DNA of 63,828 bases, filler included, from Collodictyon triciliatum (Eukaryota): NCBI GenBank assembly GCA_043381765.1. It is 34 parts of 34 records of this genome, joined end to end, with 100 filler letters (N's around TTAATTAATTAA, not from the genome) between each part and the next. Parts side by side here need not be neighbours in the genome. Positions count along the whole stretch, not along the records: positions 50,798 to 52,574 come from JBHJMP010010237.1; positions 52,675 to 54,450 come from JBHJMP010010238.1; 32 more parts are not named here. One strand, given 5' to 3'. A program made the position numbers and the translations under genes. The notes beneath the pieces are model-generated. The model had not been told where the DNA came from. It saw only the letters and a list, made by a program, of their open reading frames with translations, and made no database searches. Position 1 is the first letter of the stretch; each line of letters opens with the position of its first letter. Below are positions 51,401 to 54,450 of this stretch, piece after piece.

Positions 51401-52693
51401 AGGTAGTTAACATGCGGTTTCGAACAAGATGGTTGTTGGGGGCTTCGCCCTGTGTTGTACCGGAGAAGGGGCAAGGGTTTACTGAGTGCTCCTACCCTGG
51501 GTTCTGGTGGCTTTAATCATAATCACAAATCTATACTAAAAAAAAAAACGTGTCTTTGTCGCCGACCATTAGGATTTCTCGCAATATCTCTCTTCGACCC
51601 CTCGATTGCCCCGTGTAGAGTCAAAATTTTTTATCCCTGCATTAATATTCATCACTATCATTCTACTTTAAGGGGTTCTATGATGTATGTCCTGACTAGA
51701 TTGTAGACACGGACCTTGAGACATCATATTGATTTTGAATTGCCCTTGTCCAATAGAGTCTCTGAAATAGCTTGTGGAAGGCCCAGAAGAGCCCATTTCT
51801 TCGAGCTCTCGGGTCACTCCAAAAAATAAATAAATAGGGGGAGGCGTCATTCGGGCAATTCGCTATAAGTCAAGTAGATTCAAAAAGCCTTTTTTTTTCT
51901 CGCAGACATGTTAAGTGTATACGGCGACTTGGGCCAGAGCATTCACCGTTTGGTTGTATATTAAGGTTTTTTTTTCCATAAGGAACAAGCAGCTTTTGTG
52001 GCGCTTCCTTGTTCTAAGCTTCTACAATAATGGCGTGCACCTAGAGTGCCTCCGAAGCATCTCAAAAGTCGATGTGAATGGATAAAAGGATGACTCCCTT
52101 AAATTTACATCAAATTTTCAAAGGGTCTACACAAGTTGTATTTTTGATATACCCTGACAAATCACTCTTCTCCTTTACATTCTGTTTGGTGTTATTAAGA
52201 CCCAGAGACTCCTTTTTATTGGAATAATGATAAAGGTTGGACCTGATTGGGCACAATGAACTTCCTTGATAATCACGAGAAGCTTATGCGGTCACTATAC
52301 TCGGCAGATATTATTTTTAGGGTTCTTTTCTAGCTGAAGTTATACATATCTATGAACGAGAGAAAGAGAGAAAAGGAGAGAAGGAGAGAAAGAGAGAAAG
52401 AGAGAAAGAGAGAAAGGGAGAAAGAGAGAAAGAGAGAAAGAGAGAAAGAGAGAAAGAGAGAAAGAGAGAAAGAGAGAAAGGGAGAAAGAGAGAAAGAGAG
52501 AAAGAGAGAAAGAGAGAAAGAGAGTAAGAGAGAAAAAAAGAAAAAAAAGAAAAAAAAGAAAAAAAAGAAAAAAANNNNNNNNNNNNNNNNNNNNNNNNNN
52601 NNNNNNNNNNNNNNNNNNTTAATTAATTAANNNNNNNNNNNNNNNNNNNNNNNNNNNNNNNNNNNNNNNNNNNNATCAAAGGTCTCGCCACTT

Positions 52694-54450
52694 TTTTCAC
52701 AAAGGGTCGTGTAGTGGTGCAGCCTGCCAGGAAAGACCCAACAGCCTATTTTTTAGAGGAAGTGTATGCATATTTTGAAGGATTAAAAGAACTTTCTTGA
52801 GTATATTTTTAGCGCTGTTAAAATAAAATCGAATTAAGGGAAAAAATTAACGCTGTTAAAGTCCCTTGCCAAGAATACACTTTGTTTGCTTTCTGAGCGA
52901 TTGCATTCTTTACATATGAGACATCTATACAACTTTTTTTTGTATTTCATATCAGTTTTATACATTCCAGTTCTTTTTTCGCAGCTATAACACATCTTGG
53001 AGGTTCTAAATTCATCTACGCTAACCGTTTCAAAACGTTTGGATAGTATTTTTCGTAATCATCTTCCGTTTTTGCCATAAAATATTTTCATCAGATTTTC
53101 TGCTCCAGTCTCCTTACGCCAGTACAACATCCTTGCCAAATGTCATATCGACTCAGTCCATAAACAGTTGTTCACTTCTTTTTGTGTTGACATACCGTAT
53201 CCATCTCATCTTTCGAGAAGTTACGTGTCCATAAAATACGGATAATCCTATCTGGCATCTTGATTTCATAGATACATATTCTGGAAATTTTTCATAATCG
53301 ACAGTGCATGAATTATGTTTACTCAGTTCTGTCTCTAAATCGATTAAAGATGCTCTTGATGTCTCAAACTGCTGATTCTCTTCAAAAGTCCTGAGACCAA
53401 AAGAAATAGCACTTTGTAAACCTGTTGCCATGTATATCCCTGAAGCATTGTACTTTTTTTTTTCTCACGCATGAGTATTTTGTGATTTTAAGGAGATTTG
53501 CTATCATGTCTTCTTTGGTGTGTCGTGTAACGTAATTTCTTACCTATCTATTTCATCCACCATATAGCCCAAATTAAACTTGCCTGCGTCCACTGGAACT
53601 ATTTTATTTTTTTCTGCTAATAAAGATAACAGCTCTTCGGAAAGTTCATGTATATAAAAATAATCTTTGGGGTTTTGATTATATTTTGATTTTGAATTTG
53701 AAAACCCCTTCTTTCCAAATAGTAATGAAACCGCCAAGCCGTCTGTTTGTATTGTGTATTTAAATTTTTTGTCTCTTTGATGAAAGGCTCTCTTCTTCAT
53801 TTCAAAGAAATTATCCCATAGGGTCTCTTTGCATCTTGATATATTCTTCAGTAATAATGTTCTTTCCAGATAATACTAATAGATATATCTGTCAAACATG
53901 CAGTATCTAGAGTAATATGACATGTTGTATTGTTAGTTCTTATAGAGATTGGTTAAAACAGTTTGGTTCCTATTTCCTCAAAGATGCGATTCATGTAAAT
54001 CAGACACGGAATGTGCTTATTTGGACTGACTTTGACGTCATATTCGATACCATTTACAATGTCGCTGGGAATGATATGATGCAAATGCATTTGAGCTCAT
54101 TATTTATATTGTTCTGGTATTTCGAGTTTCTTGGAGATGGCTTTTCTTAAGTTTCGTAACTCTGCCTTTTAATAGCTTCCAGCATATCCTCATTTTAGGA
54201 ACTTTTTGATTTAAGGCTCAAAAACAAAGATTTTTAGAATAAAAAACGGTTTGATTTATAAAGCACAGGAACCTCTTTACAAAATGTTCATTAATGTAAT
54301 TATGATAAGCTGTTAACACTTGTTTCGCCAAGTACGGTAATAGATGAGACAGTCCAACCAACGGAAAGCGTTCTTCTCAAGATAAAAGGAATCGAAAATC
54401 ATCGAGATAAAAAGTCATCATGCCATCACTCATTTCTGGTTTTTTTTTTA
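52694..54450 (-). pseudogene. Fanzor1 (eukaryotic TnpB-family RNA-guided RuvC nuclease) pseudogene, 5' partial
   Basis: Intronless decayed frame: LPYLAKQVLTAYHNYINEHF, YDVKVSP...LIYMN, HITLDT, IQTDGLAVSLLF, RuvC-I IVPVDAG (D 53590-53588), RKMRWIRYVNTKRSE, GDWS, RuvC-II VDEFRTSKMCYSC (E 53013-53011), CKEC, RuvC-III RDFNSAKNI (D 52863-52861). Confidence 0.9.
52809..52860 (+). mobile_element. LINE family B-like 24-bp micro-insertion with 14-bp TSD inside Fanzor RuvC-III
   Basis: TTA(G/A)CGCTGTTAAA at 52809-52822 and 52847-52860 flanks ATAAAATCGAATTAAGGGAAAAAA. Confidence 0.8.

What the first reader, a model, noticed from the sequence alone, without database searches (positions are those of the whole stretch)
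52675..54450. Fanzor1 RNA-guided endonuclease locus in this eukaryote, missed by the ORF track
Seen: stitching minus-strand frames gives roughly 550 codons with TDGLAVSLLF, RuvC-I VDAG, RKMRWIRYVNTKRSE, GDWS, RuvC-II DEFRTS, CxxC...CxxC and RuvC-III RDFNSAKNI. All three catalytic acidic residues remain despite several stops and frameshifts, and there are no introns in an otherwise intron-dense genome. Known: this layout is that of Fanzor1/TnpB OMEGA nucleases. Inference: the N-terminal motifs (YLA...T...EHF; YD.K..P...IYMN; I.LDT) recall giant-virus-type Fanzor1, so intact copies or a viral or transposon donor may exist in this lineage.
Basis: partly seen in the sequence, partly recalled or inferred. 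Interest (0 to 1): 0.85.

Follow-up and report, generated by a model that had tools for sequence, protein, structure and literature searches.

The report
Broken Fanzor1 nuclease gene copy
This short unplaced contig holds a dead, mutation-riddled copy of a Fanzor1 gene, an RNA-guided DNA cutter carried by jumping genes; it is a real but ordinary relic of a well-known family.

Summary
The minus strand of 52697-54445 carries a Fanzor1 gene remnant. It is collinear with residues 96-638 of an intact 648-aa metagenomic relative, P0002 (57.6% identity). It matches a Fanzor1 profile at E 2e-135. That profile matches the solved Fanzor1 structures of Spizellomyces, Parasitella and Guillardia end to end.

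The three catalytic acids and four zinc-finger cysteines are kept. The gene is nevertheless dead: 8 in-frame stops, 5 frameshifts, a 38-bp frameshifting insertion, and the first ~95 codons cut off by the contig end.

The window is 34 unrelated ~1.78-kb unplaced contigs joined by N/TTAATTAATTAA linkers, and the finding is exactly one whole contig. Its neighbours say nothing about it, and neither host location nor intron density can be judged.

Public runs hold many diverged copies (85-99% alike). At several break sites these are not broken, so this is one decayed member of a multi-copy family.

The nearest labelled relatives are giant-virus Fanzor1 genes on Tc1/mariner-type elements. No guide RNA, element end or transposase is present. 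It is a new member of a known kind, of low interest.

The parts
52675..54450 (.). One whole unplaced contig (1776 bp). It is bounded on both sides by 100-nt artificial linkers (44 N + TTAATTAATTAA + 44 N).
   Evidence: 33 such linkers split the window into 34 pieces of 1774-1790 bp, nearly sorted by falling length. GC is 33.9% and CpG observed/expected is 0.81, both within the range of the other pieces.
52697..54445 (-). Fanzor1 pseudogene. It is collinear with P0002 residues 96-638 and has a terminal stop codon at 52697-52699. The 5' end is cut by the contig end.
   Evidence: tblastn gives five collinear HSPs in two frames, with a joint E of 2e-81. The read-through with X at the breaks hits profile positions 90-588 of 607 at E 2.2e-135, and 307 of 533 positions are identical to P0002.
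53881..54445 (-). N-terminal (REC/WED-like) part. It holds the motifs YLAKQVLTAYHNYINEHF, YDVKVSPNKHIPCLIYMN and ITLDT, 4 in-frame stops and one frameshift zone (54169-54220).
   Evidence: (profile positions 112-154 and 195-240).
53549..53863 (-). TDGLAVSLLF block and the RuvC-I segment. The catalytic Asp codon is at 53588-53590.
   Evidence: The ORF piece scores E 6.6e-23 against the Fanzor1 profile. The Asp aligns with invariant column D364 of P0002.
53093..53544 (-). Helical middle part up to GDWS. It holds 3 in-frame stops, and frame shifts lie at both ends of 53455-53544.
   Evidence: phmmer of the single-frame read-through P0001 matches SpuFz1 (8gkh) over this part at E 3.3e-5.
52852..53091 (-). 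RuvC-II (Glu codon 53011-53013), the CxxC...CxxC zinc finger (52981-52992 and 52912-52923) and RuvC-III (Asp codon 52861-52863). There is one in-frame stop at 53059-53061.
   Evidence: Pfam Cas12f1-like_TNB scores E 4.2e-4, below the curated cut-off. The profile hit scores E 1.9e-20. The residues align with E555, C562, C565, C584, C587 and D604 of P0002.
52814..52851 (-). 38-bp insertion bounded by a 10-nt direct repeat (TTTAACAGCG). It splits RDFNS from AKNI and shifts the frame. It has no GT..AG ends at this length.
   Evidence: The sequence is shown. Contigs of three runs (X1, X3, X7) join across it, skipping 38-39 nt (table 5).
52675..52696 (-). The 22 nt after the stop codon, which is all that remains of the 3' flank. 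In relatives this is where the element end and the guide-RNA scaffold would lie.
   Evidence: In giant-virus relatives the right inverted end lies 44-154 nt after the stop.

Best explanation
The contig is one decayed, assembly-truncated copy of a multi-copy DNA-transposon family whose cargo gene is a Fanzor1 RNA-guided endonuclease.

Inferred working of the ancestor. This rests on published work on Fanzor1 and on the anatomy of the intact relatives. The ~650-aa protein bound a guide RNA (omega/reRNA) transcribed from the 3' end of its own gene and the right transposon end. The guide carried about 20 nt of flanking sequence. The RuvC site (Asp-Glu-Asp) cut matching double-stranded DNA, which probably helped the element persist after excision.

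State of this copy. It cannot do any of that. The reading frame has 8 stops and 6 frame breaks, three otherwise invariant residues are changed, and the contig holds neither the first ~95 codons nor the guide-RNA/right-end region.

Shown: identity as Fanzor1, the damage, the existence of many diverged copies elsewhere, and kinship with giant-virus Fanzor1 genes.

Inferred: the host-genome location, the transposon type (probably Tc1/mariner-like, by analogy with the nearest labelled relatives), and past RNA-guided activity.
For: Family:
- P0002 (648 aa, intact) is the closest protein. One search gave 52% identity over 94% of the query, and one search gave 57.6% over 533 positions.
- P0002 matches the solved Fanzor1 chains: GtFz1 9cer at 2.1e-28, PpFz1 9cf0 at 2.7e-24 and SpuFz1 8gkh at 3.7e-23.
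- A 43-sequence profile matches the same chains at 9.9e-104, 1.6e-99 and 4.9e-75.
- The window's own single-frame read-through hits SpuFz1 at 3.3e-5 and PpFz1 at 3.7e-4.
- The AlphaFold model of P0002 (pLDDT 85.3) is closest to SpuFz1 (TM 0.75/0.79). Fanzor2 scores 0.21 and TnpB 0.19.

Residues: D, E, D and 4 Cys are kept. 11 of 14 invariant and 16 of 18 near-invariant columns are kept.

Decay: 8 stops and 6 frame breaks. In both trees the window's end branch is about three times that of P0002 (0.57 vs 0.21; 0.68 vs 0.20).

Multi-copy family:
- The number of contig pieces at 85% likeness or more was 255 in run X7, 56 in X1, 14 in X3 and 1 in X2.
- In X7 the pieces fall 15/62/94/84 into the bands 99+, 95-99, 90-95 and under 90%.
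- At 4 of the 8 stop sites the listed copies read a sense codon equal or similar to P0002's residue.
- Copies differ by small indels at or near 4 of the frame-break sites, and copies skip the 38-bp insertion.
- Loose ends show that other copies run on into the missing N-terminal coding part.

Family size: 3147 clusters at E <= 1e-3 and 537 at E <= 1e-30.

Relatives' anatomy: 78 of 79 giant-virus loci have an intact ORF, median 624 aa. L001-L005 carry a DDE_3 transposase ORF next to the gene (Pfam E 1.3e-13 on L001). L001 has perfect 32-nt inverted ends and L002 has 33-nt ends 97% complementary.

Mechanism from the literature:
- PMC10432273 (passages read): SpuFz1 shows RNA-guided dsDNA cleavage.
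- bioRxiv 10.1101/2023.08.09.552727 (section 25 read): the reRNA maps to the right end and extends ~20 nt beyond it.
Against: - The host location is not shown. The contig is unplaced, no whole genome is held, and no listed run holds half or more of its sampled words.
- The run richest in copies (X7) is only guessed to be RNA, and its organism is coded, so it may not be the window's species.
- Depths from contigs are not copy numbers.
- For 4 of the 8 stops no variant was among the 40 rows shown (298 more rows were not shown), so those breaks may be shared by other copies.
- The transposon type is borrowed from relatives of only 31-48% identity, and no transposase or inverted end is in the window.
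- Some frameshifts lie in homopolymer runs (for example the A run at 53453-53462) and could be assembly errors.
Confidence: 0.75

Rival explanations
1. The contig is a piece of giant-virus DNA rather than a host-resident transposon family. It would be either a fragment of an endogenised giant virus or a co-assembled contaminating virus that carries a Fanzor1 element.
For: - The nearest Atlas clusters to P0002 are 92-100% Nucleocytoviricota.
- 169 of 247 pattern matches in IMG/VR encode relatives, many of them on giant-virus MAG contigs.
- FastTree puts window+P0002 in a 7-row clade (98) with 4 viral rows.
- Bao & Jurka (PMC3627910, passages read) describe Fanzor elements in host contigs that are really integrated virus fragments (Ectocarpus, Hydra).
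- Part-matches occur in freshwater metagenomes.
Against: - 8 stops and 6 frame breaks in 1.75 kb are unlike a replicating virus. 78 of 79 viral relatives have an intact ORF.
- Dozens to hundreds of diverged pieces (85-99%) in one small run look like an aged repeat family, not a single-copy viral gene.
- In the IQ-TREE run the pair window+P0002 stands on a long stem of its own, and its sister relation to the viral rows is unresolved.
- GC and CpG are like those of the other contigs.
- An old endogenised viral fragment that later multiplied cannot be told apart from the best explanation with these data.
Confidence: 0.15
2. The gene is alive. On this reading the stops and frameshifts are introns, an unusual genetic code, or sequencing errors in a low-quality unplaced contig.
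For: - Some frame breaks lie in homopolymer runs (the A run at 53453-53462).
- One stretch (about 53462-53570) begins GTAAG and ends CAG on the coding strand, and one contig of X7 skips 109 nt there.
- All catalytic residues are kept.
Against: - The supposed intron encodes conserved protein in another frame: GKKLRYTTHQRRHDSKS against GNKLRYTAHQRRFESKS of P0002.
- TAA aligns with E, Q, R and Y of P0002, and TGA with R, W, K and G, so no single reassignment fits.
- The 38-bp insertion has no GT..AG ends at that length, and DNA metagenome contigs also lack it.
- Eight substitution-type stops cannot be homopolymer errors.
- Independent runs hold 99-100% identical stretches of the contig: X3 record 14 has 151 nt with 0 differences, and X2 record 9 has 251 nt with 3 differences.
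Confidence: 0.03
3. It is a prokaryotic TnpB, a Fanzor2, or a chance match rather than Fanzor1.
For: The only direct Pfam hit is a sub-threshold Cas12f1-like_TNB match (E 4.2e-4, 20.9 bits against a cut-off of 26.3).
Against: - The profile and phmmer hits go to the three solved Fanzor1 proteins over nearly their whole length.
- The next PDB hits score only E 3e-4, over the zinc-finger part alone.
- Fold similarity to Fanzor2 and TnpB is TM about 0.2, against 0.75 for SpuFz1.
Confidence: 0.01

Closest known systems
Fanzor1 of Spizellomyces punctatus (SpuFz1; PDB 8GKH, 9CEU-9CEZ), Parasitella parasitica (PpFz1; 9CF0-3) and Guillardia theta (GtFz1; 9CER-T)
   Same: - The domain order is the same end to end: the profile of the window's family covers positions 7-598 of 607 on SpuFz1.
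- It shares the RuvC D-E-D triad, the CxxC...CxxC finger and the N-terminal motifs.
- The model of the sister protein P0002 superposes on SpuFz1 at TM 0.75/0.79.
   Different: - Sequence identity is only 17-20% in the structural alignment.
- The window copy is broken and truncated.
- No omega RNA or element end can be seen.
- Activity is untested.
Giant-virus Fanzor1 genes on Tc1/mariner (IS630, DDE_3)-type elements, for example PGv-1 of Phaeocystis globosa virus (Bao & Jurka 2013, PMC3627910) and the IMG/VR loci L001-L005 found here
   Same: - They are the closest labelled relatives: 31-48% identity per tblastn piece, the same 600-650 aa size, and the same Pfam family DUF8286 by the Atlas.
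- They are intronless.
   Different: - The viral copies are intact in 78 of 79 loci. In L001-L005 they sit beside a DDE_3 transposase; L001 has perfect 32-nt inverted ends and L002 has 33-nt ends 97% complementary.
- The window copy is decayed, belongs to a many-copy family, and has no transposase or ends in view.
- Its lineage (with P0002) sits on its own long stem.
Simple non-autonomous Fanzor1 elements of insect large DNA viruses (SfAV and relatives) and the co-clustering families in the Hessian fly genome (PMC3627910; bioRxiv 10.1101/2023.08.09.552727)
   Same: - The element carries only a ~600-aa Fanzor1.
- Virus-borne and host-genome copies are intermingled.
- The guide RNA comes from the right end.
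- P0002's contigs of 2.6 kb leave room for little beyond the gene.
   Different: - A TTAN target duplication and 13-bp inverted ends define that group, and neither can be checked here.

Membership tests
Fanzor1 (eukaryotic/viral TnpB-derived RNA-guided nuclease) | Split RuvC domain with the catalytic Asp, Glu and Asp | tested here: met
   The codons at 53588-53590 (D), 53011-53013 (E) and 52861-52863 (D) align with invariant columns D364, E555 and D604 of a 43-sequence family alignment.
Fanzor1 (eukaryotic/viral TnpB-derived RNA-guided nuclease) | CxxC...CxxC zinc finger (TNB) between RuvC-II and RuvC-III | tested here: met
   CYSC and CLIC align with C562, C565, C584 and C587 of P0002. Pfam Cas12f1-like_TNB scores E 4.2e-4, below the curated cut-off.
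Fanzor1 (eukaryotic/viral TnpB-derived RNA-guided nuclease) | Full-length sequence homology to experimentally defined Fanzor1 proteins, including the long N-terminal REC/WED part that TnpB and Fanzor2 lack | tested here: met
   The window read-through hits the family profile at E 2.2e-135, positions 90-588 of 607. That profile hits SpuFz1, PpFz1 and GtFz1 at E 1e-103 to 5e-75. The direct window-to-SpuFz1 match is E 3.3e-5.
Fanzor1 (eukaryotic/viral TnpB-derived RNA-guided nuclease) | Fanzor1 fold | tested here: inconclusive
   Met for the sister protein P0002 (pLDDT 85.3; best match SpuFz1 at TM 0.75/0.79). The window's own broken product was not folded.
Fanzor1 (eukaryotic/viral TnpB-derived RNA-guided nuclease) | Open reading frame able to give the protein | tested here: not met
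   There are 8 in-frame stops and 6 frame breaks, and the N-terminal ~95 codons are absent. It is therefore filed as a pseudogene of the family, not as a working member.
Fanzor1 (eukaryotic/viral TnpB-derived RNA-guided nuclease) | Omega/reRNA encoded at the 3' end of the gene and the right transposon end | not testable with these tools
   The contig ends 22 nt after the stop codon. In viral relatives the right end lies 44-154 nt after the stop.
Fanzor1 (eukaryotic/viral TnpB-derived RNA-guided nuclease) | RNA-guided double-strand DNA cleavage | not testable with these tools
   This needs biochemistry on an intact family member.
Tc1/mariner (IS630, DDE_3)-type Fanzor1 transposon | Terminal inverted repeats, TA target duplication, and a DDE_3 transposase in the autonomous copies | not testable with these tools
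   None of these lies in the contig, and no DDE_3-like ORF is found in any of the 34 contigs (best tblastn E 1.6). They are present in the viral relatives L001-L005.
Giant-virus (Nucleocytoviricota) genome fragment | The sequence belongs to a viral genome, shown by viral neighbours or intact viral-style genes | tested here: inconclusive
   The protein kinship is viral-leaning. No neighbours exist on the contig, however, the gene is heavily decayed, and many diverged copies exist. The sister relation is unresolved.

The most novel reading that the evidence does not exclude
A Fanzor1 transposon lineage that shares recent ancestry with giant-virus elements has invaded a freshwater eukaryote and multiplied there to dozens or hundreds of copies. 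Some of the younger copies (99% alike, lacking this copy's breaks) would still encode an active RNA-guided nuclease and guide RNA. That would make a natural case of virus-to-host spread of a programmable nuclease, and a source of a new compact editor.
Probability: 0.3. Interest if true: 0.4.

Novelty: new member of a known kind. Interest (0 to 1): 0.2.

Why it matters
Fanzor1 nucleases are of practical interest as compact eukaryote-born genome editors, and of evolutionary interest as TnpB descendants spread by viruses. A dead copy adds little by itself. Decayed and multi-copy Fanzor elements in eukaryotic genomes, and their intermingling with viral ones, have been described since 2013 (PMC3627910) and again in 2023 (PMC10432273). 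The useful outcomes here are three:
- a warning that this window is a chain of unlinked contigs;
- a pointer that the source organism, or a close freshwater relative, carries a large family in which intact copies may be worth looking for;
- the note that this lineage has only one close relative among public predicted proteins.

Tried and rejected
- Whole genome: none is held for this window, so no assembly-wide copy count, coverage or k-mer test could be run.
- Pfam on the five ORF pieces gave only a sub-threshold TNB hit. Pfam on P0002 and P0001 gave nothing in the local copy, although a precomputed PF26935 (DUF8286) label exists.
- Rfam at gathering thresholds over the whole window: 0 matches.
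- Close relatives:
  - The protein search at near lengths found none.
  - The search at longer lengths found only P0002.
  - Two JGI metagenome scans found none. One search gave 49 pattern matches and one search gave 362, and none was confirmed.
  - The IMG/VR scan with P0002 alone found none (36 pattern matches, none confirmed).
  - The 43-row alignment was too diverse for that tool. A 9-row alignment worked.
- Cluster look-up gave no informative names for P0002, P0003, P0004, P0007 or P0013.
- Sequencing runs: no RNA holder is listed, and no run holds half or more of the sampled words. Parts of the contig without cover in X1-X3 are not evidence of anything.
- Host taxon: the Atlas look-up of a kinase ORF from another contig gave mixed eukaryotic and viral clusters and no answer.
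- Intron reading of 53462-53570 and of the 38-bp insertion: rejected.
- Stop-codon reassignment: rejected. Each stop codon aligns with several different residues.
- Simple inverted-repeat search close around L003-L005 found no clear ends. A wider search found the ends for L001 and L002.
- The 22-nt tail after the stop shares AAAAGTGGCG with the inner edge of the viral right end (AAAAGTCGGCG). This is too short to count and is kept only as a lead.
- Earlier scan notes: none for this genome or sequence.
- Supplementary tables of the Fanzor papers were not seen. They may list this organism or this lineage.
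Full report
**What the window is.** The 63,828-base window is not a continuous stretch of a chromosome. It holds 33 identical 100-nt linkers (44 N, TTAATTAATTAA, 44 N). These cut it into 34 pieces of 1774-1790 bp, nearly sorted by falling length, with GC from 28.8 to 49.4%. This is the layout of a bin of unplaced contigs. The finding (52675-54450) is exactly one whole 1776-bp contig. The microsatellites and genes on either side belong to other contigs and say nothing about it. 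No whole genome is held for the window.

**The observation.** A single-frame read-through with X at the stops (P0001) found one strong relative among proteins of 477-2000 aa. This is P0002, 648 aa and intact, from a metagenome contig of 2.6 kb, at E 2.7e-66.

tblastn of P0002 against the window gives five collinear segments in two frames. They cover P0002 residues 96-638 on this contig and nothing significant elsewhere.

Seven pieces joined with X at the breaks give 550 positions, of which 307 of 533 comparable ones are identical to P0002.

I built a profile from 43 full-length family members (A1) and searched all 1890 stop-to-stop ORF pieces of the window. Only pieces of this contig hit it. 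Five are significant and collinear (E 6.6e-23 to 4.4e-7 at Z = 1e6). The joined read-through scores E 2.2e-135 over profile positions 90-588 of 607. The signal is far beyond chance.

**The damage.**
- There are eight in-frame stops, with first bases at 54379, 54102, 54099, 53955, 53490, 53155, 53116 and 53061.
- There are six frame breaks: near 54169-54220, 53864-53880, 53545-53548, the A run at 53453-53455, 53092, and a 38-bp insertion with a 10-nt direct repeat at about 52814-52851. The insertion separates RDFNS from AKNI.
- P0002 residues 1-95 have no counterpart because the contig ends.
- The frame closes at 52697-52699, 22 nt before the other contig end.
- The catalytic Asp, Glu and Asp and the four finger cysteines are kept.
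- 11 of 14 invariant columns of the family are kept (P254, P365 and E391 of P0002 are changed), as are 16 of 18 near-invariant ones.
- The stops are not a variant genetic code. TAA stands opposite E, Q, R and Y of P0002, and TGA opposite R, W, K and G.
- They are not introns either. The one stretch with intron-like ends encodes conserved residues in another frame. The 38-bp insertion lacks GT..AG ends at that length and is also absent from DNA metagenome contigs.

**What family it is.** P0002 matches the three solved Fanzor1 proteins by sequence: GtFz1 at 2.1e-28, PpFz1 at 2.7e-24 and SpuFz1 at 3.7e-23. The A1 profile matches them at 4.9e-75 to 9.9e-104 over almost its whole length. The next hits score only E 3e-4, on the zinc-finger part. 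The window's own P0001 reaches SpuFz1 at 3.3e-5 and PpFz1 at 3.7e-4.

The AlphaFold model of P0002 (pLDDT 85.3, pTM 0.83) is most like SpuFz1 (TM 0.75/0.79). PpFz1 and GtFz1 follow. Fanzor2, TnpB and Cas12f reach only about 0.2. The family is large: 3147 clusters at E <= 1e-3 and 537 at E <= 1e-30 among 1.84 billion representatives.

They are general Fanzor1 motifs.

**Kinship with giant viruses.** The Atlas clusters nearest to P0002 carry DUF8286 (PF26935) and are 92-100% Nucleocytoviricota. An IMG/VR scan with a 9-sequence alignment found 169 relatives among 247 pattern matches. Of these, 79 loci were kept, many on giant-virus MAG contigs, and 78 have an intact ORF with a median of 624 aa.

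- FastTree, 84 rows. These are 84 of 133 rows: 49 near-duplicates at 85% identity or more were dropped, and only proteins of 560 aa or more were used, P proteins up to 760 aa. Window+P0002 pair at 100 and sit in a 7-row clade (98) with four viral rows.
- IQ-TREE, mixture model, 36 chosen rows. The pair is kept (100) but sits on a long stem, and its sister relation is unresolved.

So the lineage lies within a radiation whose labelled members are giant-virus genes. A viral donor is not shown. Most rows carry no label and may be eukaryotic.

**Anatomy of the relatives.** In L001 the Fanzor1 gene lies in a 3.3-kb element with perfect 32-nt inverted ends. A divergently oriented 346-aa ORF there matches DDE_3 (E 1.3e-13) and an HTH domain. 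L002 has 33-nt ends that are 97% complementary.

L001-L005 all have this transposase next to the gene, as do 31 of 79 loci somewhere in their flanks. Two copies in one giant-virus MAG share only about 2.09 kb, that is the gene plus roughly 105 nt on each side. A conserved right-end motif lies 44-154 nt after the stop in 30 of 78 loci.

This matches the Mariner-type and the simple Fanzor1 elements described by Bao & Jurka (PMC3627910, passages read). It also matches the finding that the guide RNA maps to the right end and runs ~20 nt beyond it (bioRxiv 10.1101/2023.08.09.552727, section 25 read). RNA-guided dsDNA cleavage by SpuFz1 is reported in PMC10432273 (passages read). The window contig has no transposase, no ends and no guide region.

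**Other copies.** No listed run holds half or more of the contig's sampled words. Twelve runs, mostly freshwater or lake metagenomes plus one run of a coded organism A, hold small shares.

Laying four runs at 85% likeness or more gave 255 contig pieces in X7 (organism A), 56 in X1, 14 in X3 and 1 in X2. In X7 the pieces fall 15/62/94/84 into the bands 99+, 95-99, 90-95 and under 90%.

- X3 has a 151-nt piece identical to the contig.
- X2 has a 251-nt piece with 3 differences.
- At four of the eight stop sites (54379, 54102, 53955, 53155) all or most listed copies read a sense codon equal or similar to P0002's residue. For the other four stops, no row was among the 40 shown of 338.
- At two conserved positions of the NNIKEHF motif, the other copies carry the family's residues where the window copy differs.
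- Copies differ by small indels at or near four of the frame-break sites, and several skip the 38-bp insertion.
- Loose ends continue into the coding sequence for the missing N-terminal part.

The contig is therefore a real sequence, not an assembly artefact. It is one particularly decayed member of a family with many diverged copies. Contig depths are not copy numbers, and X7 is only guessed to be RNA, so nothing can be said about expression.

**Explanation and rivals.** The best reading is a dead copy of a multi-copy Fanzor1 transposon family in the source organism's genome (0.75). A short repeat-derived contig that the assembler could not place fits this reading.

- Giant-virus fragment, endogenised or contaminating (0.15). 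The protein kinship favours it. The heavy decay (against 78 of 79 intact viral ORFs), the many diverged copies and the ordinary composition (GC 33.9%, CpG observed/expected 0.81) count against it. It cannot be excluded without the genome.
- Live gene hidden by introns, code or errors (0.03).
- Non-Fanzor1 identity (0.01).

**Comparison with what is known, and verdict.** Fanzor1 genes, their transposon contexts, their presence in giant viruses, the intermingling of viral and host copies, and multi-copy families in host genomes are all in print (PMC3627910; PMC10432273). Earlier notes of this scan on other genomes report the same kind of giant-virus Fanzor1 elements and relics. My finding of DDE_3 plus inverted ends in L001 and L002 agrees with one of them.

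The present copy fails the one membership feature that matters for function, an open frame, and two others cannot be tested. It is a new, broken member of a known kind, and its interest is low. The one lead worth keeping is that the source organism, or a close freshwater relative, holds many younger copies. Some of these may be intact.

Noticed in passing
window 1-63828: The whole window is a chain of 34 unplaced contigs of 1774-1790 bp joined by 100-nt linkers (44 N + TTAATTAATTAA + 44 N). Any finding in this window that relies on neighbouring features across a linker is unsound.
   Followed up: yes
window 5665-7449 (+): This contig is open from end to end in one frame. It encodes about 11 WD40 repeats with very strong Pfam hits (WD40 E 1.9e-118). 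There is no intron or stop over 595 codons, and the gene is cut at both contig ends.
   Followed up: partly
window 32718-33800 (-): An intronless 360-codon ORF has a TKL-type protein kinase domain (PK_Tyr_Ser-Thr E 3.3e-34). The nearest Atlas clusters are mixed (oomycete, chordate, parabasalid and giant-virus kinases) and gave no host taxon.
   Followed up: partly
window 47432-48508 (-): A 358-codon ORF carries FG-GAP repeats (FG-GAP_2 E 1.7e-28).
   Followed up: no
window 37795-39087 (-), 28422-29693 (+): Two long ORFs (430 and 423 codons) have no convincing Pfam family. The second has only a weak Rpb1 C-terminal-repeat-like hit.
   Followed up: no
L001 2637-5952; L002 2627-5949: These are giant-virus elements of about 3.3 kb with 32-33-nt inverted ends, a DDE_3/HTH transposase and a Fanzor1 gene. 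The right end begins only 16 nt after the Fanzor1 stop in L001, so any guide-RNA scaffold must overlap the end of the coding sequence.
   Followed up: partly
L008 998-1030 vs L011 5874-5906; L016 1068-1102 vs L020 5887-5921: Exact 33-35-nt copies of the Fanzor1 right end lie in inverted orientation about 2.8-2.9 kb upstream of the Fanzor1 ORF start in other giant-virus loci. They are either far left ends of longer elements or solo ends.
   Followed up: no
window 52675-52704 (-): The tail after the stop codon reads AAAAGTGGCG at about the place where the viral relatives' right inverted end starts (AAAAGTCGGCG). This may be the inner edge of the element end, but it is too short to judge.
   Followed up: partly
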